Shown piece after piece: positions 11,632 to 31,481 of a stretch of DNA of 64,000 bases. This stretch comes from an uncultured Syntrophaceae bacterium (GTDB lineage Bacteria > Desulfobacterota > Syntrophia > Syntrophales > UBA6807), in NCBI GenBank assembly GCA_964523565.1, contig CAZGAK010000003.1, positions 11,700-75,699 of the forward strand. Reading direction: 5' to 3'. Numbering within the stretch: position 1 is the stretch's first letter; each line of letters opens with the position of its first letter. Made by a program: the position numbers and the translations under genes. Under the pieces are notes generated by a model. It was not told the DNA's origin and did no database searches. It worked only from the letters and a program-made list of their open reading frames with translations.

Positions 11632-13200
11632 ATGAAATCACTTTATTTCACCACTGAGCATGAAGCATTCAGGAATACGGCACGTCTTTTTATGGAAAAG
11701 GAAGTCGTTCCTTTCGCAGATGACTGGGAAAGGGAGCGTTGCATTCCGAGATCTATCTGGAAAAGGATGGGTGAGCTTGGATTTTTGGGAATTGATTACC
11801 CCGAAGAATATGGTGGAACGGATGCGGACTTTTTTTATTCCGTCGTATTTATGGAAGAACTGACACGCAGCACGATGGCCGGATTTGCCGCTGCGGTGAG
11901 CGTTCATCAGTATATGGCCGCCGAATATATACACAAGTTTGCGACAAGCGATTTGAAACATCGATACCTCGTTCCTGCTATAGCGGGTGAAAAAATCGGA
12001 GCACTTGCCGTTACGGAACCTGATGCCGGATCCGACGTTGCATCCATTCGGACGAGGGCTGTGCGGGAAGGTGAATACTATACTATCAACGGGGCAAAAA
12101 CCTTCATAACCAACGGTTATTATGGAGATTTTATCATTATTGCGGCAAAAACCGAACCGGATGCAGGATTCGGAGGAATCAGTCTCATCCTTGTGGACAG
12201 GGATACACAGGGCCTGGAGGCCAGAAAGCTTGAGAAAATCGGATGGCACTGTTCTGATACCGCCGAACTTCACTTTGATGATATGAAGGTGCCCGTTGCG
12301 AATCTTATTGGTAAGGAAAATGAAGGATTTTATTATATTATGGAGTGTTTTCAGCTCGAACGTCTGGTAAGCGCCATTATAGCGATAGCCGGTGCCAGAC
12401 TTGGCCTGGAATATACCCTGGGGTACATTGCCGAGAGGAAAGCCTTCGGAAGACCGATTGCGAGGTTTCAGTCCATCAGACATGCCGTGGTAGACATGAA
12501 GACCGAAATTGAAGCGGCGCAACAACTGACCTATCATACAGCGTGGCGTTATGGGCAGGGAGAATATGTTGTCATGGAATGTTCGATGGCCAAACTGCTG
12601 ACCACGGAGCTTGCTAAAAAGGTAGCAGATAACTGCCTGCAATTCTTTGGCGGCTACGGATATATGGATGAGTATCCCATATCCCGGATGTTCCGTGATG
12701 CCAGGGCCGGTACGATAGTCGGAGGTACCTCTGAAATCATGCGGGAAATCATCGCCAGGCTAATGATTGATCAGGTTAGTTATGATTCCCATCGGGATGA
12801 AAGGGAAAAGAAGGCAGTACCCGCAAAAGAAACTGTAAAAGACGAGAGCAAGGAAGATCCTGGTACTTTACCTGAAACGGCCGCAGATATTATACAGACC
12901 TTGCCGGTGCGGTTTCGTGCCGAAAAGGCGGGAAGCTGGGAAACGATATTCCATTTCGATATTTCAGGTGCCGAGGGTGGGCAATATACGGTTTATATAC
13001 AAAATGGTGCCTGTACTGTAGAGCCTGGTCTGAAAGGTGATGCAAAATGTGTCGTAAAAACGTCGGACAAGACTTACCGGGACATTGAACTGGGCAAAGC
13101 CAATCCCGAAGCAGCCTTTATGATGCGCAAGATCAAGGTCAGCAACATTACCGAAATGATTCAATTTACAAAGATGTTTCGAAGACTTCCGAAGGAGTAA
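11632..13200 (+). CDS. acyl-CoA dehydrogenase with C-terminal SCP2 sterol-carrier domain
   Basis: ACAD N, middle and C domains (ALAVTEPDAGSD; QFFGGYGYMDEYP). An acidic linker is followed by an SCP2-like tail (FHFDISGAEGGQYTVYIQNG...PEAAFMMRKIKVSN). Confidence 0.88.
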   Translation: MKSLYFTTEHEAFRNTARLFMEKEVVPFADDWERERCIPRSIWKRMGELGFLGIDYPEEYGGTDADFFYSVVFMEELTRSTMAGFAAAVSVHQYMAAEYIHKFATSDLKHRYLVPAIAGEKIGALAVTEPDAGSDVASIRTRAVREGEYYTINGAKTFITNGYYGDFIIIAAKTEPDAGFGGISLILVDRDTQGLEARKLEKIGWHCSDTAELHFDDMKVPVANLIGKENEGFYYIMECFQLERLVSAIIAIAGARLGLEYTLGYIAERKAFGRPIARFQSIRHAVVDMKTEIEAAQQLTYHTAWRYGQGEYVVMECSMAKLLTTELAKKVADNCLQFFGGYGYMDEYPISRMFRDARAGTIVGGTSEIMREIIARLMIDQVSYDSHRDEREKKAVPAKETVKDESKEDPGTLPETAADIIQTLPVRFRAEKAGSWETIFHFDISGAEGGQYTVYIQNGACTVEPGLKGDAKCVVKTSDKTYRDIELGKANPEAAFMMRKIKVSNITEMIQFTKMFRRLPKE

Positions 13201-19110: not shown

Positions 19111-19361
19111 GCAGACTGCTATCATGTTACTTCCAAATTGAGGTGAAATAAAAACGGCAACCTGCACATTCAGGTCGAATATACACAAATTTTCATAATC
19201 TTTGAATCCTTGATCAAACAGCCAGTTTCCCTTGACATTATAAGGTTTTCTGCTAAGTATGTTAAAGCTTTAACAAAAGAATAAAGGATGCCATGTATTA
19301 AACAACAAATGATCTTTTCTTCATAAATACGTGAAGGTTCTAAAGATGGCAGATAATCACA

Positions 19362-19396
19362 AAAACCCCGTATCTCTTAAACAGAGGCGGGGTTTT
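19362..19396. terminator. hairpin flanked by A and T runs (bidirectional terminator-like)
   Basis: aaaaccccg...cggggttttatttt, located at the left edge of the R-M island. Confidence 0.35.
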
Positions 19397-19483
19397 ATTT
19401 TCTTCTCATAATGAAGTCGATTATGGCGGAAGTATTCTTCATCTTGTTCAATAATATAAGAAATTAAAAGAGAAGAGGGAAAA

Positions 19484-21061
19484 GTGGCAAAAAATAACAA
19501 CGGTGCGAATCTTGGGTTTGAAAACCAGTTATGGGCGGCGGCGGATAAGCTCCGGGGACATATGGATGCCTCGGAGTACAAACATGTTGTCCTTGGATTG
19601 ATCTTTTTGAAATATATCTCCGATACCTTCCAGGCCAAATATAAGAAACTGGAGGAGACCAGAGAGACGGAATACACCGACCCGGAAGACCGTGATGAAT
19701 ATGCCGCCGCCAATGTCTTCTGGGTGCCCAAAGAAGCCCGCTGGGAAGCCCTTAGGGTGGGGGCGAAGCAGCCTGCCATCGGCAAGCTCGTCGATGACGC
19801 TATGGTTGCCATCGAAAAGGAAAATCCCTTCCTCAAAAACGTTTTGCCCAAGGACTATGCACGTCCCGCCCTTGACAAATATCGTCTGGGCGAGCTTATC
19901 GACATCGTAAGCACAATAGGCCTCGGCGACGACGCGTCCCGCTCACAAGACATCCTGGGCCGTGTTTACGAATACTTTCTCGGAAAATTTGCCACCGCCG
20001 AAGGTAAAGGGGGCGGTGAATTTTATACGCCCCAATGCGTCGTCAAACTCCTTGTTCAAATGATCGAACCCTATAAAGGTCGTATTTATGATCCCTGCTG
20101 CGGTTCGGGAGGCATGTTCGTACAGAGTGAACGGTTTGTCAAAGAGCACGGCGGCAGGCGCGGCGATATCTCCATCTACGGGCAGGAGTCGAACGCAACA
20201 ACCTGGAAGCTTGCCAAAATGAACCTGGCCATCCGCGGCATCGATCCCAATCTTGGCTTACAACAGGCGGACAGTTTCAGCAACGATCTGCACAAAGATC
20301 TCAGGGCCGACTTTCTCCTTGCCAATCCCCCCTTCAATATGAGCGACTGGGGCGGCGAGCGGCTCAAGGACGATGTTCGCTGGAAATTCGGAGTGCCGCC
20401 GGTAAACAACGCAAACTACGCATGGATTCAGCATTTCATCCACCACCTCTCTCCGACGGGGATTTCCGGGTTTGTCATGGCCAACGGTTCCATGTCCACC
20501 AATACGGCAAGCGAAGGCGAAATCCGAAAAAGCATCATCGAGGGGGACTTCGTGGATTGTATGATCGCCCTTCCGGGGCAGCTTTTTTATACGACCCAGA
20601 TTCCCGTCTGTCTCTGGTTTGTCTCCCGGAACAAGAAAAACGGCAGATTCCGCAACCGATGCGGTCAGACCCTCTTTATCGATGCCCGAAAGATGGGAAC
20701 TCTTATAGACCGGGTTCACCGTGAACTTTCCGATGACGAGATCAACCGGATCGCCGGAACCTACCATGCCTGGCGAGGTGAACCGATAACCCCCTCTACC
20801 CCTGTGGGAGAGGGTGGGGGTGAGGGGTACAAAGATATCCCCGGGTTCTGCAAGTCGATCGAAACGAAAGAAATTAGAGACCACGGCTATGTTCTTACCC
20901 CTGGCCGCTATGTCGGCGCGGAAGAGGTGGCGGATGACGGCGAACCGCTCGAAGAAAAAATGACCCGACTCACGATACAATTAAAAGAACAGTTCTCTGA
21001 GTCATGCCGGCTGGAAGCAATAATTGCAAAAAACTTGAAAGGTCTTGGTTATGAAATTTGA
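19484..21061 (+). CDS. hsdM: type I restriction-modification system methyltransferase subunit M
   Basis: HsdM_N ([10 protein letters not shown]), SAM motif [10 protein letters not shown], catalytic LANPPFN. GTG start. Confidence 0.95.
20783..20829 (+). repeat. GEG-type palindromic repeat embedded in-frame in hsdM
   Basis: ccgataaccccctctacccctgtgggagagggtgggggtgagggg is translated as [15 protein letters not shown], between AWRGE and [10 protein letters not shown]. Confidence 0.6.
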
Positions 21062-22136
21062 TCCGAAAAAGCCATGTAACGATCTTCCGTTGCTTCCGCC
21101 AAAGGCGGATATTGAGACAAAAGAGGTGCTCAAGAAAGCAATTACGGCAACGCGTGCACTGGCGGAACTCAAGGGGCTTGGCGAGACGATTCCCAACCAA
21201 GCCATTCTTGTAAATTCCCTCACTCTTCAAGAGGCCAAAGTAAGTTCAGAGATTGAAAATGTCATTACGACTAATGATGCACTTTTTAGGGCATTTACCG
21301 CCAGTACCACCAATATTGATTCCGCTACCAAAGAGGTTTTGAGATATCGGGAGGCGTTGTGGAAAGGATTTAACGCTCTTAAGGGGCGTCAGGTTCTGAC
21401 AACAAATCTTTTTGTGGATATTGTCAGGACAATCAAAAAAAATCAGGCCGGCATTCGAAATATCCCCGGAACAGCCGTCGCAAACGGTGTAACCGGCGAG
21501 GTGATTTTTACTCCGCCTGAAGGTGAATCGGTTATCCGAGACAAATTAAAGAATCTCGAAGACTTTATTCATGCTGAAGACTCCATAGATCCGCTAATCA
21601 AATTAGCTGTTATCCATTATCAGTTTGAATCAATTCACCCTTTTTTAGATGGCAATGGCAGGACAGGGAGAATTATCAACATTCTTTACCTTGTGTTCAG
21701 TGGCCTTCTGGAACTGCCGATTTTATATTTGAGCAAATATATCATTGAAAACAAGGGCGAGTACTACAAACTTTTGCGGCGGGTCACGGAACATGCCGAT
21801 TGGGAACCATGGATTCTTTATATGCTTAATGCTGTGGAGGACACGGCTCTGTTTACTAGAGAGAGGATTTTTGCGATCCGGGATCTGATGGAAAAAACAC
21901 GCCTTGTCGCCAAGGAAAAGTTGCCTGGTCGTGTTTATTCCAAGGAACTCATCGAGCTTCTGTTCCAGCAGCCATACTGTAAAATTGCGTTTCTTGTGGA
22001 TAAGGGAATCGCTTCACGTAATATTGCCAGCAATTACCTCAATGAACTAACCAAGATCAGCATTTTAAAAAAGGAAAAAATCGGAAATGAATTTGTGTTC
22101 CTTAATATACCGTTGTATGAACTGCTTACAAAATAA
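21051..22136 (+). CDS. Fic family protein (Fic_N + Fic core + C-terminal wHTH-like tail)
   Basis: Fic motif [12 protein letters not shown]; N-terminal inhibitory-type motif SSEIEN ([ST]xxxE[GN]). ATG at 21051 overlaps the last 11 nt of hsdM. Confidence 0.9.
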
Positions 22137-22248
22137 TAAGGGATACACCGGATCAGTGCATACCACGGAAGAGAGCACTAATATAGTTATAATCAGTGCA
22201 TACCGAAAAGTCATGCACTGATTTAGTGCATTGATGAACACGTTATAG

Positions 22249-22275
22249 AAACATGTCCATGGCATGGACATGTTT
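22249..22275. other. 27-bp perfect palindrome (13-bp arms, 1-nt centre)
   Basis: aaacatgtccatg-g-catggacatgttt, checked by hand reverse-complementing. Confidence 0.85.
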
Positions 22276-22319
22276 GATTGTGCGAGCTTCAATAAACGGC
22301 AATGATTCATGGCGGAGCT

Positions 22320-22376
22320 GATCAGCTCGAAGCCACCATCAAGAAGAACTTAGAGGTTCTGGATTATGGTGAGTGA
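22320..22376 (+). pseudogene. remnant of the 3' end of a second hsdM (about 18 codons), stop overlapping the hsdS start
   Basis: Translates DQLEATIKKNLEVLDYGE*, compared with the resident hsdM tail [18 protein letters not shown]. An upstream TAA closes the frame at about 22296. Confidence 0.6.
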
Positions 22377-23553
22377 TTGGACATCTACAACTGTTGGCTC
22401 CTTCTGCCCATTTGCATACGGGAAAGGACTGCCTGAGAAGAAACGCAACATGAATGGAAATATCAAGGTCTATGGTTCCAATGGTCCAGTGGGAGTGCAC
22501 GATCAGCCATTGGTAGACGAGTCTGGGATTGTCGTTGGCCGAAAAGGCACCGTCGGAGCCGTTCATTTTGCCCCTGAGCCATTTTGGCCAATTGATACCA
22601 CTTTTTATATAGTCGGTAAAGCTGACAGAGATCTTAGCTTCACGTATTACTTGCTCAAGTCAATTGGATTAGAACACATGAACGCAGATAGTGCTGTCCC
22701 CGGTCTGAATCGCGATGCAGCACATGCACGACCAATACTTGTTCCAGAACACCCTGAACAACGCGCTATAGCCCATATCCTCGGATCGCTGGACGACAAA
22801 ATCGAACTGAACCGCAAGATGAATGAAACACTGGAGGCAATGGCCCGCACCATCTTCAAGAGCTGGTTTATCGATTTCGATCCCGTCCGCGCCAAAGCCG
22901 AAGGCCGCGACCCCGGTCTTCCCAAAGAAATCGCCAACATCTTCCCCGACAGCTTCGAGGATTCGGAACTTGGAGAGATTCCGAAAGGATGGGAAGTCGG
23001 AGCCATTGCAGATTTGGCGAATGTGACAAGTGGAAAAAGACCGCAGAAAAGGTCAAAAGAGAAAACGGGAGAATTTACCATACCTTTGTATGGCGGCGGC
23101 GGCATTATGGCTTATGTCTCAACACCGATGATTTCAGAACCATTTTTACTGACAGGACGTGTTGGAACCCTGGGAAAAATATTTCGCATTACAGAAGAAT
23201 GTTGGCCGTCAGATAATACGCTTTTATTGTTTCCTTTGTGTAATTCCTATTTGGAATATCTTTATTTTATCCTCCATAGAATCGATTTTGATTCATTAAA
23301 CAGAGGTTCGACACAGCCGCTCGTAACCCAGACAGACATTAAGAATCAAAGAGTAGTTATTCCAAATGAGAATATTTTAAGATTTTATTGGCAACAAGTG
23401 CATCCAATGTTCGAGCGAATTGATAAGAATGATAAAGAGACCGCCACCCTTGCCTCTCTTCGCGACACACTACTCCCCAAACTCATTTCGGGCGAACTGC
23501 GAGTTCCGGATACGGAAAAATTCGTAGAGGAGGGGCTGGCCCATGACCAATAA
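22366..23553 (+). CDS. hsdS: type I restriction-modification system specificity subunit S
   Basis: Two target-recognition domains separated by the conserved central helix (LPEQRAIAHILGSLDDKIELNRKMNETLEAMARTIF), plus the C-terminal conserved helix (LASLRDTLLPKLISGELRV). Confidence 0.92.
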   Translation: MVSDWTSTTVGSFCPFAYGKGLPEKKRNMNGNIKVYGSNGPVGVHDQPLVDESGIVVGRKGTVGAVHFAPEPFWPIDTTFYIVGKADRDLSFTYYLLKSIGLEHMNADSAVPGLNRDAAHARPILVPEHPEQRAIAHILGSLDDKIELNRKMNETLEAMARTIFKSWFIDFDPVRAKAEGRDPGLPKEIANIFPDSFEDSELGEIPKGWEVGAIADLANVTSGKRPQKRSKEKTGEFTIPLYGGGGIMAYVSTPMISEPFLLTGRVGTLGKIFRITEECWPSDNTLLLFPLCNSYLEYLYFILHRIDFDSLNRGSTQPLVTQTDIKNQRVVIPNENILRFYWQQVHPMFERIDKNDKETATLASLRDTLLPKLISGELRVPDTEKFVEEGLAHDQ

Positions 23554-26500
23554 TAGCAAACAACTCAGCAATCCTTTTTCGACCGGTGGCGGTGGTGGAC
23601 AATTCGAGGCACATGTGCAGGCGTCTTTTGTCGTGCTCATGCTTACTGGCGGGTTTGTACCTTGTATGCCTTGCTGGCCTATCAGCAAGATAAAGCTACA
23701 AGGGAAATTTGCCGGATATGATACCGATGATCTTGTCGTTTTTGTCGAGAAGCCAGGTAGTAACCAGAAGCGGAAGATTCTTGGTCAGATCAAGCATTCC
23801 ATCAGCATCACTGAAAATGACAAAGTTTTCGGCGAGGTCATTCAGGCCGCATGGAACGACTTTAACAATACCAGTCTGTTTTCCAGAGGCAAAGATGCCA
23901 TTGCCCTTATCACCGGCCCATTGAGCGCAACGGATGTCAACGATGTGCGTACCATTCTTGAATGGGCAAGGTACTCGGAAAACGCTGACGAATTTATCAA
24001 AAAAGTAGAACTGACTCATTTCAGCAGCCAGAGAAAACAAAACAAGTTACAAACCTTCAAAACAAATCTGAAAAATGCTAATGGTGGCAATCCTGTTTCA
24101 GACGAAATTCTTTTTGAATTCCTGAAACATTTTCACCTTCTTGGCTATGACTTAGATATCAAGGCCGGAGTCACTTTATCGCTACTTCATTCTCTGATTG
24201 GTCAATATTCACAGGAGAATGCACAGTCGTTGTGGTCTCGACTTGTCGATGAGGTGCAATCTGCCAACAAGAACGCGGGCACCATTTCACCAGAAAGCCT
24301 TCCCGATGATTTACATACCGCCTTCAAGCAACGGGTCTATGAGGTCATCCCTCACGAGTTTTCATCTGGTCAGTTGCCGTCAGCCAAGCCAAATTGGAAT
24401 CAGTACCCATACGCTTCTGATCTGGTGATTGCCAATCTTCTTGGCGCATGGAATGAGAAAAACGCAGCCGATCTTGAAGTCGTTTGTCAACTCGCCAATG
24501 AGGAGTTTGGTTCTTGGATTCCCAAAATCAGGGAGATACTACAACAACCAGAAAGTCCAGTTTCCCTGAAAAACGGTAGGTGGCGTGTTACTGACCGGAA
24601 AAGCTTATGGCAGGCTTTAGGTACAAGGCTCTTTGATGATAATTTGGACAACTTGAAGCAGTGTGTTGTCACCGTCTTGTCAGAGCGCGATCCCCAGTTT
24701 GAATTATCTCCCGAAGAACGCTATGCCGCTATCATTCATGGGAAGGCATTGAAGCATTCACCAGAACTTCGGAAGGGTCTGGCTGAAAGTCTGACACTTC
24801 TTGGTACCCAACCCGACGATTTGAATAACTGCTCACAAAATAAGCCAGAAACTATTGCCGTTCTTGCTATTCGAGAAATCTTTGAGAATGCGGATTGGGT
24901 ATTGTGGGGCAGCTTGAATAATCTGCTCTCGGTTTTGGCTGAATCATCCCCTGATGAGTTTTTGAACGCGGTTGAAAATGCGTTGCAGCAAACTCCCTGC
25001 CCGTTTGACGAGCTATTCTCACAAGAAGGCGATGGCATCACCGGCAGAAATTACCTTACCGGCTTGCTTTGGGCGTTGGAAACTCTCGCATGGGATGAGA
25101 AATTCTTGGTTAGAGTGTGTGTGATTCTTGGTGATCTATCCACCCTTGACCCTGGTGGCAACTGGGCCAACCGTCCGACCAATTCCCTCACGACGATTTT
25201 GCTTCCGTGGCTTCCTCAAACCACGGCGTCTATCAATAAGCGCAAGGTTGCGCTGCAAACTCTTCAAAAGGAGGTTCCGGCAGTTGCATGGAAGCTCTTG
25301 CTCAGCCTACTGCCAAACCAGCACCAGATGTCAATGGGTGCTCATAAGCCTTCATGGCGTAATACCATTCCCGATGATTGGGTAAAGGGCGTGACTCAAA
25401 AGGAGTATTGGGAGCAGGTTACCTTTTACGCTGAACTGGCGGCTTCGATGGCAAGCCATGACATGGAAAAGCTGCATAAGCTTGTTGGTCATCTCGACAA
25501 CTTGCCTCAGCCTTCTTTCGACAAAGTTCTGGAACACCTGTCATCGGAAGCTGTATGCAGCAAACCAGAAGATGAACGTCTGGCACTTTGGACTGGACTG
25601 ACTAAGTTTGCCTTAAAGCACAGACGCTTTTCCGATGCAAAATGGGCACTGAGTTCTGACATCATTTCAAAAATCGAGAATGTTGCCGCAAAACTTGCCC
25701 CTACCAATCCATTAAACCTTCATCGCAGGTTGTTTAGCGGTCGTGACTTCGATCTCTACGAAGAAAAAGGAAACTGGGAAGAACAGCGGCGGAAGCTCGA
25801 TGAACGCCGTCAGCAGGCAATAAAAGATATCTTGGCCTATGGCGGAACGGATGCGGTAACCTGGTTTGCCGAATCTGTTAAGTTGCCTTTTCATGTCGGT
25901 CATTCCCTTGGTGTAATCGCCGAGCCAGAAATTGATAAAAGGATACTTCCAGCACTGCTGGAAACAGATAATAAGAAACTCGCACAATTCACAAGCGGCT
26001 ATATTTGGAGTCGCCGAAATAGCAATGGTTGGGCATGGGTCGATGGACTGGATAGATCGGGTTGGTCAGTCTCACAGATCGGCCAGTTTTTAAGCTATCT
26101 GCCCTTTACAGAGGAGGCTTGGTTTCGTGCGGGAGCGTGGCTTGGAGGGTCTGAAAATGAATATTGGAGTAGAACAAGTGCGAATCCTTATCAGCCAGAT
26201 GGCAACCTTGAGGATGCCATTGATAAACTGCTGGAAAATGAAAGGCCCAATGTTGCGATCAGCTGCCTGAATAGAATGCTCTATAACAAACAGCCGTTGG
26301 ATAAGTCGCAAAGCGTGAAGGCTCTTCTTTCTGCGGTATCTTCCAAAGAACCTTCATACGCGATGGACACATATGACATTGTTGAAATAATAAAGGCCTT
26401 ACAAGATGATCCTGACACTGATCCCGAAGATCTTTTCCGGGTTGAGTGGGCATACCTGCCCTTACTGGATCGATATCATGGCGCTTCGCCGGAGTTGTTG

Positions 26501-27118
26501 GAAAATCGACTCGCTTCTGACACAGCATTTTTCTGTGAGGTTATACGTCTTGTTTATCGTTCAAAAAAGAAGGGCAAATCCGAGAAAGAGCCAAACGAGC
26601 AGGAAAAATCCATTGCTACAAATGCGTGGAGACTCCTTCATGAATGGCGCACCCCACCAGGCATGCAGCCTGATGGCATTTTTTCGGGGGAGAAATTTAC
26701 ACAGTGGTTTGAACATACCAAGAAGGCGTGTGCTGAATCCGGGCATCTTGAAGTAGCCTTGACACATGTAGGACAAGTTCTAATTTATTGTCCACCTGAT
26801 CTGCAAGGATTATGGATAGATCAAACCGTTGCCAATGCACTCAATGCAAAGGATGCCGAGGAAATGCGAAACGGTTTCCGTACTGCAATTTTCAATTCTC
26901 GTGGGGTTCACTGGGTCGACCCAACTGGAAAACCAGAACGAGAGCTTGCCGAACAGTATAGACAAAAAGCCAATGAGGTTGAGAACGCTGGATATCAGCG
27001 TTTCGCAGTCACGCTTAGGAGCTTGTCAGAATCTTACAACCATGATGCGGATCGAATTATCGCCGAACATAAGGAGGAAGACAACGCCAGCAATAACGAG
27101 GAGAGGTCCAATGAATGA
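23543..27118 (+). CDS. 1191-aa uncharacterised protein; N-terminal Mrr/Cap4-like nuclease-type motif pattern and a long helical C-terminal region
   Basis: Uninterrupted 3.6-kb ORF. The ATG overlaps the hsdS stop by 11 nt, and the TGA overlaps the ATG of the hsdR stub. Motifs G15GGGGQFE, D60-T-D-D-LVVFVEK70 and Q82-I-K84-H. No Walker A found by eye. Confidence 0.8.
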   Translation: MTNNSKQLSNPFSTGGGGGQFEAHVQASFVVLMLTGGFVPCMPCWPISKIKLQGKFAGYDTDDLVVFVEKPGSNQKRKILGQIKHSISITENDKVFGEVIQAAWNDFNNTSLFSRGKDAIALITGPLSATDVNDVRTILEWARYSENADEFIKKVELTHFSSQRKQNKLQTFKTNLKNANGGNPVSDEILFEFLKHFHLLGYDLDIKAGVTLSLLHSLIGQYSQENAQSLWSRLVDEVQSANKNAGTISPESLPDDLHTAFKQRVYEVIPHEFSSGQLPSAKPNWNQYPYASDLVIANLLGAWNEKNAADLEVVCQLANEEFGSWIPKIREILQQPESPVSLKNGRWRVTDRKSLWQALGTRLFDDNLDNLKQCVVTVLSERDPQFELSPEERYAAIIHGKALKHSPELRKGLAESLTLLGTQPDDLNNCSQNKPETIAVLAIREIFENADWVLWGSLNNLLSVLAESSPDEFLNAVENALQQTPCPFDELFSQEGDGITGRNYLTGLLWALETLAWDEKFLVRVCVILGDLSTLDPGGNWANRPTNSLTTILLPWLPQTTASINKRKVALQTLQKEVPAVAWKLLLSLLPNQHQMSMGAHKPSWRNTIPDDWVKGVTQKEYWEQVTFYAELAASMASHDMEKLHKLVGHLDNLPQPSFDKVLEHLSSEAVCSKPEDERLALWTGLTKFALKHRRFSDAKWALSSDIISKIENVAAKLAPTNPLNLHRRLFSGRDFDLYEEKGNWEEQRRKLDERRQQAIKDILAYGGTDAVTWFAESVKLPFHVGHSLGVIAEPEIDKRILPALLETDNKKLAQFTSGYIWSRRNSNGWAWVDGLDRSGWSVSQIGQFLSYLPFTEEAWFRAGAWLGGSENEYWSRTSANPYQPDGNLEDAIDKLLENERPNVAISCLNRMLYNKQPLDKSQSVKALLSAVSSKEPSYAMDTYDIVEIIKALQDDPDTDPEDLFRVEWAYLPLLDRYHGASPELLENRLASDTAFFCEVIRLVYRSKKKGKSEKEPNEQEKSIATNAWRLLHEWRTPPGMQPDGIFSGEKFTQWFEHTKKACAESGHLEVALTHVGQVLIYCPPDLQGLWIDQTVANALNAKDAEEMRNGFRTAIFNSRGVHWVDPTGKPERELAEQYRQKANEVENAGYQRFAVTLRSLSESYNHDADRIIAEHKEEDNASNNEERSNE

Positions 27119-27299
27119 TAACGTCTCCAGCATCACCGAAAATACCCTCGAACAAACCACCCTTGATTGGGTCGAATCCTTGGGTTGGCAGACCGCTTTC
27201 GGTCCCGACATCAGTCCGAACCTGCTGGTACCGGACATGGCACGGCAGACGGGTTCCCACGGGGCAGGTAAACACGCAGACAGGGAGGCTGGCGTATGA
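27111..27299 (+). pseudogene. hsdR 5' stub (first ~40 codons homologous to the HsdR N terminus, then unrelated sequence and a stop)
   Basis: MNDNVSSITENTLEQTTLDWVESLGWQTAFGPDISPN... compared with the MSKTSENTLEQTTLDWFESLGWQTAFGPNISPD of hsdR at 28305. About 86% nt identity over 84 nt by hand alignment. Confidence 0.8.
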
Positions 27300-28312
27300 A
27301 CAGCGAAATTATATTCTACAGCACGCCGGATGGTGATAAGAAGATCGAGGTATTATTTCAGGATGAGAATTTTTGGTTGACGCAGAAGGATATTGCCCGG
27401 CTGTTCGGCGTTGAAGTACCCGCCATCAGCAAACATTTGGGGAACATCTACGAGACAGGAGAACTGGACAGGAAGTCAACTCTTTCCATTTTGGAAACAG
27501 TTCGCCAAGAGAGCAGTCGCAGCGTAAAGCGGAAGCTGGAATATTACAACCTCGACGCCATTATTGCTACGGGCTATCGGGTCAACAGCTATCAGGCCAC
27601 CCAGTTTCGCATCTGGGCGACCAAAACCTTGAAAGAGTTTATCATCAAGGGTTTTGTGCTGGATGATGAACGGCTCAAGCAGGGAAAGTGCTTTGGTAAG
27701 GATTATTTCGATGAACTCCTTGAACGTATCCGGGAGATTCGAGCCAGTGAACGACGTTTCTATCAAAAGATCACCGACATTTACGCGCTTGCGGCCGATT
27801 ACGACGAAGATGCGCCCATCACCAAGGATTTTTTTGCCACAGTGCAGAACAAGCTCCATTGGGCCATTACCGGCAAGACCGCCGCTGAAATCATCTATGC
27901 CTCGGCCGATGCAGGGAAAATACACATGGGTTTGACCAGTTGGAAACAGGCGCCTGACGGCAAGATAATGAAATCGGATGTTTCCGTCGCTAAAAACTAT
28001 TTAAACGAGGCGCACATCAAAGAATTGAACCGCATTGTTTCCGCCTATCTTGACCTTGCGGAAAATCGGGCTGAACGGCAAATGTTGATGAAAATGGAAG
28101 ATTGGATCCAGTTCCTTCACAAATTTCTGGAACTTTCCAACTATCCCATTCTTCAAGATAAGGGCAAAGCGAGCGCGATAGAGGCCAAACTCAAAGCCGA
28201 ACAGGAATATGACACCTATCGCAAGCGACAGGACCGGGAGTTCATTTCAGACTTTGACAGGGAAGTCAAACGGATTCAGGGCAAGCACAAGCAAGAGGGT
28301 GACGATGAGTAA
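27296..28312 (+). CDS. rhuM: RhuM-family protein
   Basis: N terminus IIFYSTPDGDKKIEVLFQDENFWLTQKDIARLFGV and YYNLDAIIATGYRVNSYQATQFRIWATK are typical of RhuM. The ATG overlaps the stub stop (ATGA) and the stop overlaps the hsdR ATG. Confidence 0.88.
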   Translation: MNSEIIFYSTPDGDKKIEVLFQDENFWLTQKDIARLFGVEVPAISKHLGNIYETGELDRKSTLSILETVRQESSRSVKRKLEYYNLDAIIATGYRVNSYQATQFRIWATKTLKEFIIKGFVLDDERLKQGKCFGKDYFDELLERIREIRASERRFYQKITDIYALAADYDEDAPITKDFFATVQNKLHWAITGKTAAEIIYASADAGKIHMGLTSWKQAPDGKIMKSDVSVAKNYLNEAHIKELNRIVSAYLDLAENRAERQMLMKMEDWIQFLHKFLELSNYPILQDKGKASAIEAKLKAEQEYDTYRKRQDREFISDFDREVKRIQGKHKQEGDDE

Positions 28313-31300
28313 AACTTCCGAAAACACCCTTGAACAAACCACCCTCGACTGGTTTGAATCCCTTGGATGGCAAACCGCTTTCGGTCCCAACATCAGTCCG
28401 GACGGCCTTTCCTGTGAGCGGAAGGATTATGATCATGTCGTACTGGAAGACCGACTGCGAACCACACTCCATGATATTAATCCGAATATACCGTACAGTG
28501 CGCTTGATGATGCCCTTCGTAAAATCACACGCACCGAAAGTCCCAGCCTGATTGAAAACAACCGGCGGTTTCACCGGTTTCTGACCGACGGGGTGGACGT
28601 TTCCTATATGGACGATGGCCGCGAGGTCTTCGATAAAGTATGGCTTCTCGATTTAGCGGATCTGGAAAATAACGACTGGCTTGTGGTCAACCAGTTTACC
28701 GTGGTTGAGAATCGAATAAACCGCAGGCCCGATCTGGTGGTCTTTGTTAATGGGCTACCCCTGGCGGTGGTGGAATTGAAAAATCCCGCCGACGAAAAGG
28801 CGACAATCCGGCAGGCCTTTAACCAGTTCCAGACGTATAAGCAGGATATACCCACACTTTTTGCGTACAACGAACTCTTAATCGTCTCCGACGGTCTTGA
28901 GGCGCGGTGCGGCTCCATTACCAGCGGCTGGGACCGCTTCATGCCCTGGCGCACCGTTGACGGTACGGAAGTTGTTCCGAAGGGCTTGGTAGAACTGGAA
29001 GTGCTTATCAAGGGAATTTTTGACAAGCGTCGTCTCCTTGACCTGCTCCTCAACTTTATCGTCTTTGAAGACGATGGGAGTGTTATCGTTAAAAAAGTTG
29101 CCGCCTATCACCAATATCATGCCGTCAACAAGGCCGTGGAATGCACCTTGTCGGCCTGTGGTATTACAGCCAAATCAGGACAATTATATGCCGATTTTCC
29201 CGTCCACGATGAATTGAATCCTTTTGAGATATAGGAAGCTGCCGCGCCGGGCTGGACGACATCAACTCACTTCGGCGGCCGCCGCATCGGTGTCATATGG
29301 CATACTCAGGGAAGCGGCAAAAGTCTTTCCATGGCCTTTCTTGCCGGCAAAGTCATCCGTCATCCGGCAATGAAAAACCCGACCATCGTCGTCATCACCG
29401 ACCGCAACGATCTGGACGAGCAGCTCTTCGGGACCTTTTCCCGGTGCAGGGATCTCATGCGTCAGACACCAGTACAGGCTGAATCCAGACCCCATCTTCG
29501 GACACTTTTGAACATTCCCGCCGGAGGTGTTGTGTTCACCACGATTCAGAAGTTCATGCCCGAAGAGAAAGGGGATCGGTATCCGAAGTTATCCGATCGA
29601 GAGAATATCGTGGTAATTGCCGATGAAGCCCACCGCAGCCAGTATGACTTTATCGACGGATATGCCCGCCACATGCACGACGCCTTGCCCAAGGCATCAT
29701 TCATCGGCTTTACCGCCACGCCGATTGAACGGGATGACCGGAGCACGCCTGCGGTTTTCGGTGATTACATAGATACCTACGATATGCTTCGGTCCATTGA
29801 AGACAAGGCAACTGTGCCCATCTATTACGAAGGAAGGCTTGCAAAAACAGAACTCGATAAGGATGAGTGGCCTGCAATCGATCCGGAATTTGAAGAAATT
29901 ACCGAGGGAGAAGAAGAAACGGCAAAACAGCGTCTGCGCACCAAGTGGGCTGCCCTTGAGGCAATGGTGGGAACGGAAAAACGGATTGCCCTTGTGGCGG
30001 AAGACCTCGTGAGACATGCCGAGGAGCGGCAGAGCGTCATGAAGGGAAAGGTGCTCATCGTATGCATGAGCCGCCGCATCTGTGTAGATATGTATAACGC
30101 GATTGTAAAGTTACGACCTGAATGGCACGGTGGTGACGACGATAAAGGAATTGTCAAAATTGTCATGTCGGGCGCGGCATCGGATAAGCTCGAATGGCAA
30201 CCTCATATTCGCAATAAGGCCCGGCGTGAAACATTGGCCAAGCGGTTTAAAAATGCTGAAGACCATCTTGCTGTGGTTATTGTCCGCGACATGTGGCTTA
30301 CGGGATTTGACTGTCCGTCCATGCATACCATGTATGTGGATAAGCCGATGCGGGGGCATGGATTAATGCAGGCAATCGCGCGGGTCAATCGTGTTTTTAA
30401 AGATAAACCGGGCGGGTTGGTGGTCGACTATATCGGACTTGCCTATCAACTGAAGCGTGCATTGGCCGATTATACTGAAGCTGGCGGTCGTGGAAAAGCG
30501 ACATTTGATCAGGAAGAGGCCGTCGCTGTGATGCTTGAGAAATATGATATTGTGGTCACGATGTACCATGGTTTTGACTATATATCGCTCATTAATGCAA
30601 CACCGGCGGAACGGCTTTCCGGCATTGCTGCGGCCATGGAACATATTTTTCAAATCGAAGAAGGCAAGACGCGCTATCTCGAATCGGTGACGGCGTTATC
30701 GAAGGCCTTTGCACTTGCTGTTCCCCATGAAAAGGCTCTTAAAATCCGGGATGAGGTTGGATTTTTTCAGGAAGTGCGAAGCGCCTTGGCAAAAGCAACC
30801 GTCGAGGGTGAAGGTAAAACGCAGGAAGAAATGGATACGGCAATCCAACAGTTAGTGTCACGGGCTGTCATTTCCGATGAAGTTGTCGATATCTTTGCAT
30901 CGGTGGGACTGAAAAAGCCTGACATTTCTATTCTATCTGATGAATTTCTTGAAGAAGTCAGACAACTGCCTCATAAAAATCTGGCCGTGGAAGTGTTGAG
31001 GAAACTTCTCAATGACGAAATTAAAGCCCGGTCAAGGAAGAACGTTGTTCAAGCACGTTCATTTTCCGAGATGCTTGAGGAAGCGATTATTAAGTATCAG
31101 AATAGGGCCATAGAGGCGGCGCAGGTCATCGAAGAATTAATAACCCTTGCCAGAGAGATGCGCAAGGCGCAAAAACGCGGCGAAGAACTTAACCTCAATG
31201 AAGACGAAATCGCCTTTTACGATGCACTGGGCGTCAATGACAGCGCAGTAAAGATATTAGGTGATGATATCCTAAAGACGATTGCCCACGAATTAGTGAC

Positions 31301-31481
31301 GGCCGTTCGCAGAAATGTCTCCGTTGACTGGACAGTACGAGAAAATGCGAGGGCACAGATTCGGGTAATCGTCAGACGCATTTTGAGAAAATACGGCTAT
31401 CCGCCCGATAAGCAGGAAAAGGCAACACAGACTGTATTGGAGCAGGCAGAAGTTTTGTGCAAGGAATGGGTGACCACATAA
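28305..31481 (+). pseudogene. hsdR: type I restriction endonuclease subunit R, interrupted by a single in-frame TAG at 29232-29234
   Basis: HsdR_N nuclease motif (PDLVVFVNGLPLAVVELKNP). The same frame continues after the TAG into [22 protein letters not shown] (Walker A), [10 protein letters not shown] (DEAH) and a DUF3387-like tail ([22 protein letters not shown]). ORFs 28209..29234 and 29331..31481 share one frame. Confidence 0.9.

What the first reader, a model, noticed from the sequence alone, without database searches (positions are those of the whole stretch)
27111..27299. Duplicated, diverged hsdR 5' end: a 62-codon stub precedes rhuM and the full hsdR head follows it
27138-27221 aligns to 28320-28403 with 12 mismatches in 84 nt by hand alignment. 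Eight of these fall in codons that remain synonymous. Both copies encode ENTLEQTTLDW(V/F)ESLGWQTAFGP(D/N)ISP. After 27222 the stub diverges (LLVPDMARQTGSHGAGKHADREAGV*), and its stop overlaps the rhuM ATG. The mostly synonymous pattern indicates two hsdR alleles that diverged under selection and were later joined. It does not look like a recent duplication. The stub keeps its own ATG, coupled to ORF1191, so a 62-aa HsdR-N-terminal peptide could still be made.
Basis: seen in the sequence. Interest (0 to 1): 0.55.

Follow-up and report, generated by a model that had tools for sequence, protein, structure and literature searches.

The report
Recombination scar inside restriction-modification operon
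The 62-codon ORF is a leftover seam: the first 37 codons of an older restriction-subunit gene (hsdR) are joined, through a small decayed palindrome, to the last codons of a specificity gene (hsdS). It marks where a second defence gene (rhuM) with its own hsdR was stacked onto a Type I restriction-modification operon; similar seams recur in other environmental genomes, so it is an informative footprint rather than a new system.

Summary
27136-27221 and 28318-28403 are 86% identical (12 mismatches in 84 nt, 8 of them in synonymous codons; BLASTN E 2e-24). The same junction occurs in at least 23 independently assembled contigs.

The stub is a composite relic:
- Codons 1-37 are the 5' end of the hsdR that natively follows ORF1191. 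The intact arrangement survives in a Syntrophaceae MAG.
- 27222-27253 is a decayed 33-nt palindrome. It is found in-frame in some intact hsdR alleles.
- The last ~18 nt are the final codons and stop of an hsdS that once preceded rhuM. Relatives keep the full hsdS tail '(GELR)VPDAEKFVEEAG*'.

Homologous stubs lie behind at least six different upstream contexts and in front of two candidate defence cassettes (rhuM = PDC-S05; DUF3800 pair = PDC-M04). Independent hsdR-5'::hsdS-3' fusions at other junction points also exist.

Best reading: a scar left when two embedded cassettes were stacked by non-allelic recombination. The scar stays open and probably passes ribosomes from ORF1191 to rhuM. The peptide itself looks unconstrained.

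The downstream hsdR is not intact. It has a fixed in-frame TAG at 29232-29234.

Interest is moderate.

The parts
19484..21061 (+). hsdM (Type I methyltransferase subunit), first gene of the operon
   Evidence: Pfam N6_Mtase 2e-107 and HsdM_N
21051..22136 (+). SoFic-type Fic protein embedded between hsdM and hsdS. The sister haplotype L002 has a DUF1016 gene here instead
   Evidence: Pfam Fic_N/Fic/SoFic-like_C; PADLOC SoFic 4e-115; gene tables
22366..23553 (+). hsdS. Its C-terminus reads ...LLPKLISGELRVPDTEKFVEEGLAHDQ*. A haplotype recombination point lies at ~23428, inside its conserved 3' region
   Evidence: Pfam Methylase_S; C-termini; window vs L002/L025 BLAST
23543..27118 (+). ORF1191, an uncharacterised embedded gene (cassette 1). 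Its stop overlaps the stub ATG
   Evidence: No Pfam, PADLOC or NCBIfam hit; homologues sit inside Type I loci of several phyla
27100..27106 (+). Shine-Dalgarno GGAGAGG of the former hsdR_A start, now serving the stub
   Evidence: Read from sequence; the same context precedes the intact hsdR in L025
27111..27299 (+). The 62-codon stub ORF (hsdR-5' :: palindrome remnant :: hsdS-3' remnant)
27111..27221 (+). hsdR-derived part, codons 1-37. MNDNVSSIT is the start typical of ORF1191-linked hsdR. 27136-27221 is the copy matching 28318-28403
   Evidence: the same N-terminus is seen in L011, L014, P0162 and P0171
27222..27253 (+). Decayed copy of a ~33-nt palindrome (PE1; intact form CTGCCTGCGCCG...CGGCAGGCAGG). 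It is a recurrent break point
   Evidence: Unique in the window; intact in L011, L022, L016, L034, L035; folds; alignments
27254..27272 (+). Short linker of unclear origin. It takes the place of the hsdS codons VPDAEKFVE that relatives keep
   Evidence: Alignment A5
27273..27299 (+). Right arm of a second small palindrome (CACGCAGACAGG), then the last codons and stop of a former hsdS. These include the rhuM Shine-Dalgarno GGGAGG (27283-27288)
   Evidence: Aligns with true hsdS 3' ends and with the L013/L020/L032 tails
27296..28312 (+). rhuM (cassette 2), a candidate defence gene. Its stop overlaps the hsdR ATG
   Evidence: Pfam Virulence_RhuM 3e-112; PADLOC PDC-S05 6e-154
28318..28403 (+). Second copy of the repeat, inside the head of hsdR_B
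28305..31481 (+). hsdR_B, full length in extent but interrupted by TAG at 29232-29234, so a pseudogene
   Evidence: the same split is seen in independent contigs; TAG is an ordinary stop codon in this window

Best explanation
The stub is a recombination scar at the seam between two gene cassettes embedded in a Type I restriction-modification operon.

**Origin.** One parental operon was ...hsdS-ORF1191-hsdR_A. The other was ...hsdS_B-rhuM-hsdR_B. A non-allelic (illegitimate or microhomology-level) join connected hsdR_A just after codon 37 to the last ~13 codons of hsdS_B. The hsdR_A allele carried a 33-nt in-frame palindrome at that point. Everything between the two break points was lost.

The result is ORF1191 - [hsdR_A codons 1-37 :: palindrome :: hsdS_B tail] - rhuM - hsdR_B.

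**Spread.** Once formed, the seam moved and was reshuffled by ordinary homologous recombination. The recombination used the conserved hsdR 5' end on one side and the hsdS 3' end or the cassette on the other. This explains why different genes flank it in different genomes.

**In the window lineage.** The palindrome and the hsdS piece have decayed further.

**Function.** The scar has kept the hsdR_A ribosome-binding site and start, which overlap the ORF1191 stop. It has also kept the hsdS_B stop, which overlaps the rhuM start. It is therefore most likely translated as a pass-through ORF that keeps rhuM translationally coupled to ORF1191. The 62-aa product itself has no function.

**Status of the steps.**
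- Shown: composite origin, recurrence, mosaicism.
- Inferred: mechanism of the first join, and coupling.
For: 1. **Native partner.** In L025 (Syntrophaceae MAG), ORF1191 (96% aa identity) is followed directly by an uninterrupted 1,065-codon hsdR through the same ATGAATGA overlap. L014, P0162 and P0171 show the same MNDNVSSIT start continuing as true hsdR.

2. **Mosaic boundary.** Window and L025 differ at about 1 in 25 nt up to 27078. Identity is ~82% over 27078-27160 and unrelated after 27164. L002 and L025 are 98.4% identical over 9.9 kb, ending at window position ~27208. hsdR_B vs hsdR_A is only 79%.

3. **The tail is an hsdS 3' end.** True HsdS proteins in these loci end ...LLPKLISGELRVPDAEKFVEE(V/A)GL*. 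Homologous stub tails read:
   - ...GVPDAEKFILEAGI* (L011, L022)
   - ...IPDAEKFVE-[27-nt palindrome]-DASV* (L013, L020)
   - GELRVPNAEKFVE in the hsdS frame (L032)

   The window's last 18 nt align with the hsdS stop region.

4. **The palindrome pre-exists in hsdR.** A clean 33-nt in-frame insertion after ...ISPD is followed by native GPACER in L016, L034, L035, P0018 and P0186.

5. **Recurrence.**
   - The gene upstream of the stub is ORF1191, AAA_13, DUF1828/9, a 221-aa ORF, a 556-aa ORF or a 441-aa ORF.
   - The gene downstream is rhuM or a DUF3800 + 146-aa pair (PDC-M04A/B).

6. **Independent fusions at other points.** These lie at NPNIPPD::(P)DAEKF via the shared CCGGATGC, at ISPE::KLSKLISG, at RLRQAL::LPTLISGEL and at AERD::TVLPKLVSG.

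7. **Relic status.** There is no Pfam hit. The catalytic D...ExK lies at about residues 143-160. Conserved residues are degraded in stubs:
   - F>V and P>Q/L
   - GP>GS in 4 of 14 stubs against ~0-1 of 32 heads
   - a 6-codon deletion in L035

   Tail codon changes are 20 non-synonymous to 9 synonymous.

8. **Coupling.** The Shine-Dalgarno and overlaps are present. No promoter-like or terminator-like site lies on the + strand between ORF1191 and rhuM. Tail lengths of 74, 71 and 98 nt are all 2 mod 3. In 9 of 10 stub loci with DNA in hand, the ORF runs to a stop that overlaps or abuts the next gene's start.
Against: - The exact history cannot be reconstructed. The stub's first codons resemble L011/L014 more than L025, so several recombination events are superimposed.
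- In the window itself, the hsdS origin of the tail rests mainly on transitivity through relatives. Only the last ~18 nt and a GGCAG..GTTCC stretch align directly, and 27254-27272 is unexplained.
- No locus with this hsdS type directly followed by rhuM was retrieved. The Aeromonas plasmid example has hsdS-rhuM-hsdR, but of another family and with a 167-nt gap.
- The in-frame excess could partly reflect protein-based searching. One relative (L032) is out of frame.
- rhuM has its own Shine-Dalgarno, so coupling may be dispensable.
- The origin of the palindrome is unresolved.
Confidence: 0.78

Rival explanations
1. The stub-plus-tail is a selected 'adapter' rather than a passive scar. It would be a portable pair of homology arms (hsdR 5' end, hsdS 3' end), possibly with the palindrome as a preferred break or recombination site. 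This would let embedded defence cassettes be stacked and exchanged between Type I operons, like an integron without a dedicated integrase.
For: - The same break point (after ...ATCAGYCCGGAC) with the same palindrome is seen in at least 8 distinct loci.
- Genes differ on both sides of a conserved seam.
- L015 shows rhuM followed by a second stub that is broken at the same point.
- Haplotypes within one population recombine at the hsdS 3' conserved region.
- Further hsdR-stub classes are numerous. One example is the ~118-aa class ending ...VDVEVISEDEYGxVRHxEEAGx*.
Against: - No integrase or transposase lies within about 10 kb in the window (gene table).
- The palindrome occurs nowhere else in the window or in about 400 kb of related loci.
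- Several junction classes sit at different positions with simple microhomology, as expected of sporadic illegitimate events.
- The predicted reciprocal mosaic of a single-crossover (Campbell-type) integration is not seen. The whole hsdR_B differs from hsdR_A.
- Stub sequences decay.
Confidence: 0.15
2. The 62-aa product is a functional small protein. Examples would be an HsdR N-terminal mimic that modulates assembly or restriction, or a regulator of rhuM.
For: - The ORF is intact, has a good Shine-Dalgarno, and is identical across the population.
- Homologous ORFs stay open in most relatives.
Against: - The tail evolves at roughly the neutral non-synonymous to synonymous ratio, 20:9.
- Residues that are near-invariant in working HsdR heads are replaced in stubs.
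- Tails differ in length and content between relatives.
- The fragment holds only the first helix and strand of the nuclease domain, with no catalytic residue.
- No family in Pfam or PADLOC matches it.
- The cognate hsdR in this genome is itself dead.
Confidence: 0.05
3. An in-situ duplication created the two copies. This could be a target-site-like duplication made by insertion of a mobile rhuM element, or a tandem duplication, followed by divergence.
For: - Direct repeats flank tail + rhuM.
- In L035, stub and head are almost identical over codons 45-66.
Against: - The copies differ by 14%, mostly at synonymous sites. Meanwhile the adjacent ORF1191 is 96-98% identical to a relative that lacks rhuM.
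- The stub start (MNDNVSSIT) and the head start (MSKTSENT) are different alleles, each tied to its own upstream gene in other loci.
- The sequence between the repeats starts with an hsdS 3' end. That is inherited context, not an element terminus.
- rhuM encodes no recombinase.
Confidence: 0.03
4. The duplication is an assembly artefact that joins reads from two strains.
For: The data are metagenomic, and two haplotypes of the locus coexist (L001 vs L002).
Against: - The same junction is recovered on at least 23 contigs from different assemblers and samples, up to 106 kb long.
- Both haplotypes share it at 99.4% identity.
- Diverged homologues of the same seam exist in unrelated samples.
Confidence: 0.01

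Closest known systems
Defence genes embedded inside Type I R-M operons. Examples: 'guilt-by-embedding' PDC families (Payne et al. 2024, bioRxiv 10.1101/2024.01.29.577857); TgvAB in Vibrio cholerae VPI-2 (PMC11411939); PrrC
   Same: The operon has accessory genes between hsdM, hsdS and hsdR. The window's rhuM and Fic, and the relatives' DUF3800 pair, match PADLOC models PDC-S05, SoFic and PDC-M04. rhuM directly upstream of hsdR is also seen in an Aeromonas plasmid.
   Different: The text searches run on those two papers (for PMC11411939; for the preprint) returned no discussion of how cassettes get in or of leftover gene ends. In the preprint the terms remnant, recombination, truncated and hotspot do not occur at all. 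The feature here is the seam itself, an hsdR-5'::hsdS-3' fusion ORF between two stacked cassettes.
Gene-end duplications left by integrative elements (attL/attR within tRNA or protein genes) and integron cassette arrays (attI/attC)
   Same: A short duplicated gene end flanks the inserted DNA, and the target gene is restored downstream. Cassettes of different content sit behind a conserved junction. A small imperfect palindrome lies at the junction.
   Different: - There is no integrase, and no R/L core sites were identified.
- The copies are diverged alleles, not a fresh duplication.
- Several junction positions exist.
- The palindrome lies on one side of the cassette only.
Palindrome- or quasipalindrome-associated deletion and template switching (established knowledge of SbcCD-sensitive palindromes and quasipalindrome mutagenesis in E. 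coli; recalled, not tested here)
   Same: The main junction class sits exactly at a 33-nt perfect or near-perfect palindrome. Other classes sit at 8-nt microhomologies.
   Different: No experiment or polarity test was possible. The idea that the palindrome arose as a local inverted triplication of the native GGCCCTGCCTGCG is only a resemblance.
Recombination within conserved regions of hsd genes (hsdS target-recognition-domain swapping; allelic hsd families in the E. coli immigration control region, PMC12707154)
   Same: Exchange points fall in conserved segments. Examples are the hsdS 3' region at window ~23428 and the hsdR 5' region at ~27080-27165.
   Different: Here the join is non-allelic (hsdR 5' to hsdS 3'). 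It adds a gene instead of swapping one.
Translationally coupled overlapping genes (ATGA-type stop/start overlaps)
   Same: Overlaps link ORF1191 to the stub, the stub to rhuM, and rhuM to hsdR.
   Different: The middle ORF is a non-functional chimera whose only plausible role is to carry ribosomes. This is not tested.

Membership tests
HsdR (Type I restriction subunit; Pfam HSDR_N PF04313 + SWI2/SNF2 + T1RH-like_C) | N-terminal PD-(D/E)xK nuclease domain with catalytic D...ExK | tested here: not met
   The stub has no Pfam hit. It covers only residues 1-37. The motif DLVVFVNGLPLAVVELK lies at about 143-160 of the full protein.
HsdR (Type I restriction subunit; Pfam HSDR_N PF04313 + SWI2/SNF2 + T1RH-like_C) | Sequence homology to the hsdR 5' end | tested here: met
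   86% DNA identity to the hsdR head in the window, E 2e-24. The stub is colinear with the start of the intact hsdR in L025. It is therefore a fragment of an hsdR gene, not a member that can function.
HsdS 3' end remnant | Homology to the conserved C-terminal codons ...GELRVPDAEKFVEEAGL* and to the stop overlapping the next gene | tested here: inconclusive
   Clear in relatives (L032 82% over 39 nt; L011, L022, L013, L020). In the window only the last ~18 nt and a short GGCAG..GTTCC stretch align.
Integron cassette / attC site | IntI tyrosine recombinase nearby | tested here: not met
   No Phage_integrase or other recombinase domain is listed among the called genes within about 10 kb either side.
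Integron cassette / attC site | Imperfect palindrome with conserved R''/L''-L'/R' boxes downstream of each cassette ORF | tested here: not met
   The palindrome lies upstream of the cassette, inside an ORF. It has arms CCTGCCTGC/GCAGGCAGG, and no second copy follows rhuM in the window.
REP / RAYT (REP-associated tyrosine transposase) elements | Short palindrome dispersed in many copies in the genome | tested here: not met
   There is no other copy in the 64-kb window or in 30+ related loci.
REP / RAYT (REP-associated tyrosine transposase) elements | Associated Y1 transposase gene | tested here: not met
   None in the window. A partial RAYT-like gene sits inside rhuM of L032 (PF01797 25 bits; NF047646 51 bits, below the cut-off of 80). 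Its flanking hairpins have a different sequence.
Campbell-type insertion (duplicated homology flanking an insert) | Reciprocal hybrid structure of the two repeat copies, with recipient sequence resuming after the second copy | tested here: not met
   hsdR_B is 79% identical to the L025 hsdR along its whole length, while ORF1191 is 96-98% identical.
Translationally coupled pass-through ORF | Start overlapping the upstream stop, stop overlapping the downstream start, with a Shine-Dalgarno present | tested here: met
   ATGAATGA at 27111-27118, GTATGA at 27294-27299, GGAGAGG at 27100-27106. The same layout is seen in 9 of 10 related stub loci.
Translationally coupled pass-through ORF | Translation of the ORF and dependence of downstream expression on it | not testable with these tools
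   This needs Ribo-seq, proteomics or reporter constructs.

The most novel reading that the evidence does not exclude
hsdR-5'::hsdS-3' mini-ORFs could be the working joints of a recombinase-free cassette system.

- Every cassette embedded in this family of Type I operons is bounded by the same two conserved gene ends.
- Non-allelic joins between those ends stack cassettes.
- The resulting in-frame joints are then selected for two reasons. They supply homology arms for further exchange between genomes, and they keep each added defence gene translationally coupled to the operon.
- The palindrome at codon 37 would be the preferred break site.
Probability: 0.17. Interest if true: 0.65.

Novelty: new variant of a known kind. 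Interest (0 to 1): 0.4.

Why it matters
Embedded defence genes inside restriction-modification operons were recognised only recently. How they get there has not been addressed in the papers I could read.

This seam is a physical record of one route. A non-allelic join between the 5' end of hsdR and the 3' end of hsdS puts two cassettes in series. Ordinary recombination in the conserved gene ends then mixes partners across genomes, and even within one lake population.

Such scars could be used as markers in two ways:
- to find cassette boundaries, and so new candidate defence genes such as ORF1191;
- to date and orient exchanges.

For annotation, the finding warns that short 'hypothetical proteins' with an HsdR-like N-terminus are gene remnants. 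It also shows that the hsdR of this locus is inactive, so the system probably only methylates.

Tried and rejected
- **GIY-YIG homing element at the break.** This was suggested by 'RPGLFFTCAILCNDESGY' after the stub in L015. The resemblance is weak, the ORF is degraded, and it is seen once only. Dropped.
- **Palindrome as a dispersed REP/MITE moved by a RAYT.** No other copy occurs in the window or loci. The RAYT-like gene in L032 has different hairpins.
- **Integron-like site-specific system.** There is no recombinase, the palindrome is on one side only, and several junction classes exist.
- **Tail as frame-shifted hsdR.** The alignment after 27221 is at chance level.
- **Junction-pattern scan of 185,579 reference genomes.** 0 hits. 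The same scan of JGI metagenome contigs gave only 2. Frequency in genomes could therefore not be estimated.
- **tblastn of the stub against PLSDB plasmids.** No match.
- **Rfam on the whole window.** Nothing.
- **Promoter and terminator scan.** Nothing between ORF1191 and rhuM on the + strand.
- **Search for hsdR 5' stubs in the ORF1191 loci that carry a different hsdR family (L023, L026-L029).** None found. Only weak hsdS-C-terminus-like remnants appear between cassettes in L027 and L029 (E 0.06-0.9).
- **P0015, P0025, P0122.** These hits of the exhaustive search are spurious repeat proteins.
- **TAG in hsdR as a reassigned codon.** Rejected, because TAG ends 7 of 33 long ORFs in the window.
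Full report
**1. Observation**

The operon on the + strand contains these genes:

| Gene | Coordinates |
|---|---|
| hsdM | 19484-21061 |
| SoFic-type Fic gene | 21051-22136 |
| hsdS | 22366-23553 |
| ORF1191 (1,191 codons, no family match) | 23543-27118 |
| 62-codon stub | 27111-27299 |
| rhuM | 27296-28312 |
| hsdR | 28305-31481 |

27138-27221 vs 28320-28403 has 12 mismatches in 84 nt. Eight lie in 7 synonymous codons and four in 3 non-synonymous codons.
- The pair is the longest direct repeat of the locus (86 nt, 86%). It scores E = 1.8e-24 against the whole window, and the next hit has E = 0.4.
- The stub ATG overlaps the ORF1191 stop (ATGAATGA) and is preceded by GGAGAGG. The stub stop overlaps the rhuM ATG.
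- The identical ORF with the same neighbours is on at least 23 contigs from separate assemblies and samples. It is not an assembly artefact.

**2. The downstream hsdR is dead**

- Translation of 28305-31481 shows an in-frame TAG at 29232-29234 (...NPFEI*EAAAPGW...).
- The first start after it (29331) lies behind the GSGKS Walker A motif.
- The 309 + 716 aa split is present in all contigs that span it.
- The relative L025 reads through at this position (...MNPFALRESAAPRW...).
- TAG is an ordinary stop in this window, ending 7 of 33 long ORFs.

**3. Where the hsdR-like part comes from**

- A scan of reference genomes with ORF1191 found L025, a Syntrophaceae MAG. There ORF1191 (96% aa) is followed directly, with the same overlap, by an uninterrupted hsdR beginning MNDKVSNITEITLEQTTLDWFQDLGY....
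- A short contig (L014) and two further proteins (P0162, P0171) show MNDNVSSI(T/A)ES... continuing as real hsdR.
- Window and L025 are 96% identical at DNA level from 23428 to about 27078. Identity is about 82% over 27078-27160 and unrelated after 27164.
- The window's hsdR is only 79% identical to that of L025.
- A second haplotype from the same samples (L002) is 98.4% identical to L025 over 9.9 kb, up to the same point. It is 99.4% identical to the window from 23428 rightwards.
- So ORF1191 once had its own hsdR (hsdR_A). Only the first 37 codons of that gene are left. rhuM-hsdR_B belongs to another lineage.

**4. What the 'diverged tail' is**

Protein searches with the stub, and then with a profile of stubs, returned other short ORFs that share the tail as well as the HsdR-like head. 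They came from a 5.8-billion word-indexed set and an exhaustive scan of 1.84 billion representatives.

Their DNA shows the same break right after ...ATCAGYCCGGAC (...ISPD). Three components follow the break.

- *First palindrome.* It is about 33 nt and reads CTGCCTGCGCCG-loop-CGGCAGGCAGG.
  - It is perfect in L011, L022 and L016.
  - It has decayed to CTGCTGGTACCGGACATGGCACGGCAGACGGG in the window (27222-27253).
- *hsdS 3' end.* True HsdS proteins here end ...LLPKLISGELRVPDAEKFVEE(V/A)GL*. The tails read:
  - ...GVPDAEKFILEAGI* before a DUF3800 gene (L011, L022);
  - ...IPDAEKFVE-[palindrome]-D(A/E)xxV* before rhuM (L013, L020);
  - GELRVPNAEKFVE in the hsdS frame, 82% identical over 39 nt to a true hsdS end (L032).
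- *Second palindrome.* In the rhuM-linked long tails, a 27-nt palindrome (CCTGCCTGTGCG-TTG-CACGCAGACAGG) sits in-frame before the last hsdS codons. The window keeps its right arm (27273-27284), followed by the last hsdS-type codons and stop, which contain the rhuM Shine-Dalgarno.

The segment 27254-27272 remains unexplained.

**5. The palindrome precedes the join**

- In L016, L034 and L035, and in proteins P0018 and P0186, the same 33 nt lie as a clean in-frame insertion between ...ISPD and the native GPACER... of hsdR sequences that continue normally.
- The palindrome occurs nowhere else in the window or in the related loci. It is therefore not a dispersed repeat.
- Its left arm resembles the native codons that follow it. 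This hints at a local template-switch origin, but that is only a resemblance.

**6. Recurrence and independent events**

| Position relative to the stub | Genes observed |
|---|---|
| Upstream | ORF1191 (window, L011); AAA_13 ATPase (L013, L031); DUF6978 + DUF1828/9 (L019-21); 221-aa ORF (L022); SIR2_2 + 556-aa ORF (L032); 441-aa ORF (L034); a promoter-like intergenic region (L035) |
| Downstream | rhuM (PADLOC PDC-S05); DUF3800 + 146-aa pair (PDC-M04A/B) |

Other junction positions exist:
- hsdR ...NPNIPPD joined to hsdS (P)DAEKF... at the shared CCGGATGC (L031, L035);
- ...ISPE::KLSKLISGKLRIPDAE (P0176, P0150);
- ...RLRQAL::LPTLISGELRV (P0199);
- ...AERD::TVLPKLVSG (P0207).

So hsdR-5'::hsdS-3' fusions have arisen several times.

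Within each locus, the stub and the following hsdR head are diverged: 60-82% identity.

**7. Interpretation**

- A cassette embedded between hsdS and hsdR is bounded by the hsdS 3' end on its left and the hsdR 5' end on its right.
- Allelic recombination between two such operons can only swap cassettes.
- Putting two cassettes in series needs a non-allelic join between the right boundary of one (hsdR 5') and the left boundary of the other (hsdS 3'). The stub is exactly that join.
- The main class formed at the palindrome. Others formed at short microhomologies.
- Afterwards, homologous recombination in the conserved ends mixed partners. Evidence: the mosaic pattern, and the haplotype break at 23428.
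- A deletion between two adjacent Type I loci and an unequal exchange with incoming DNA give the same product. I cannot tell them apart.

**8. Does the stub do anything?**

- *As a protein, probably not.* It holds only the first helix and strand of the nuclease domain. The catalytic motif lies at about residues 143-160.
- It matches no family.
- Stubs lose residues that heads keep:
  - F>V, P>Q/L;
  - GP>GS in 4 of 14 stubs against about 0-1 of 32 heads;
  - a 6-codon deletion in L035.
- Tails change 20 non-synonymous to 9 synonymous codons over three pairs. By contrast, stub vs head in the window shows 3 non-synonymous to 7 synonymous. That is the signature of divergence while both were still working genes.
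- *As an ORF, possibly.* It keeps start and stop overlaps. No promoter-like or terminator-like site intervenes on the + strand. Tail lengths of 74, 71 and 98 nt all keep the frame. Nine of ten relatives with DNA in hand stay open up to the next gene's start.
- This fits a pass-through ORF that keeps rhuM coupled to ORF1191. However, the sample is related by descent and was found by protein search, and rhuM has its own Shine-Dalgarno.

**9. Comparison with what is known**

- Embedded defence genes in Type I operons are documented. Examples are Payne et al. 2024 (bioRxiv 10.1101/2024.01.29.577857) and TgvAB (PMC11411939).
- The order hsdS-rhuM-hsdR occurs in an Aeromonas plasmid.
- In Payne et al. 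the terms remnant, recombination, truncated and hotspot do not occur.
- I found no description of hsdR-5'::hsdS-3' joints, but the literature search was limited to three queries.
- Integron, REP/RAYT, Campbell-type and homing-endonuclease readings were each tested against their defining features and not met (see the membership table).

**10. Verdict**

- The feature is a recombination scar of composite origin, recurrent in environmental Type I loci, and probably translated only as a bridge.
- It is of moderate interest as a footprint of how defence cassettes are stacked. It is not a new system.

Noticed in passing
window 29232-29234: There is an in-frame TAG in hsdR. The next start (29331) lies after the Walker A motif, so the restriction subunit is inactive. 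The mutation is fixed in all contigs of this population that span it. The system probably only methylates.
   Followed up: partly
window 23543-27118 (ORF1191); L023-L030: A 1,191-aa protein has no Pfam, PADLOC or NCBIfam match. Homologues with 59-96% identity over the best segment (the distant ones cover only the C-terminal ~900 residues) sit right after hsdS in Type I loci. The hosts are MAGs of Methanosarcinales, Opitutales, Latescibacterota, Dehalococcoidia and Syntrophaceae. It is a candidate new embedded defence gene.
   Followed up: partly
window 19230-23428 vs L002 2174-6320: Two haplotypes of the operon coexist in the same sample series: hsdM-SoFic-hsdS (window) and hsdM'-DUF1016-hsdS' (L002, 98.4% identical to MAG L025). 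They become 99.4% identical from 23428, inside the conserved 3' end of hsdS.
   Followed up: partly
proteins P0160, P0166, P0168, P0170, P0172, P0174, P0175, P0184, P0201, P0202: This is a further recurrent class of ~116-122-aa hsdR stubs. Native sequence runs up to ...LTDGVDV and is then fused to ...EV(I/V)SEDEYGxVRHxEEAGx*. Some are on long contigs (up to 160 kb). The origin of the tail and the neighbouring genes are unknown.
   Followed up: no
L016 690-700 (- strand) and L017 ~540; proteins P0022, P0159: hsdR is broken again at about codon 110-120. The break follows ...VHDKVWL in L016 and L017, and ...SYMQAGREIH in P0022 and P0159 (which then read STEFHRI*). Unrelated sequence follows. This may be another recurrent disruption point.
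   Followed up: no
L031 11345-11500: The hsdR after rhuM is interrupted at about codon 41 by a ~160-190-nt insert. The insert has terminal inverted repeats (TTACTGTCCACGACCGTGGAC...GTCCACGGTCGTGGACAGTAA) and a duplicated AAGGATTA. It looks like a MITE.
   Followed up: no
L032 10199-11053: The first ~85 codons of rhuM are fused to a partial REP-associated tyrosine transposase-like sequence (PF01797 25 bits; NF047646 51 bits, below cut-off). GC-rich hairpins are embedded in it (GGGGCGAAC...GTTCGCCCC, GGGCGCAC...GTGCGCCC).
   Followed up: partly
L020 4320-4580 (also L019, L021): rhuM is reduced to an 86-aa remnant. An internal deletion joins its N-terminal ~75 codons to its last few codons. The overlap with the hsdR start is kept.
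   Followed up: no
L027 12780-12827; L029 12982-13026: Weak hsdS-C-terminus-like remnants (LIQ(T/A)RDL(I/L)L(T/P)RLISG, E 0.06-0.9) lie between embedded genes in loci with a different hsdR family. They may be analogous seams.
   Followed up: no
L024 ~11821-11922: An hsdR-like N-terminal stub (...ADVEDTALNWLEGLGWQVAHGLDFSPN...) follows a 320-aa ORF. No hsdR lies in the remaining 6.8 kb of the locus.
   Followed up: no
hsdS last codons GAGGCAGGG vs hsdR codons ~39-41 CCTGCCTGC (general; e.g. L013 hsdS end, L034 hsdR): The hsdS 3' end and the hsdR 5' region carry short mutually complementary GC-rich motifs. Both small palindromes are built from this same motif. Whether this is chance or underlies the rearrangements is unknown.
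   Followed up: no
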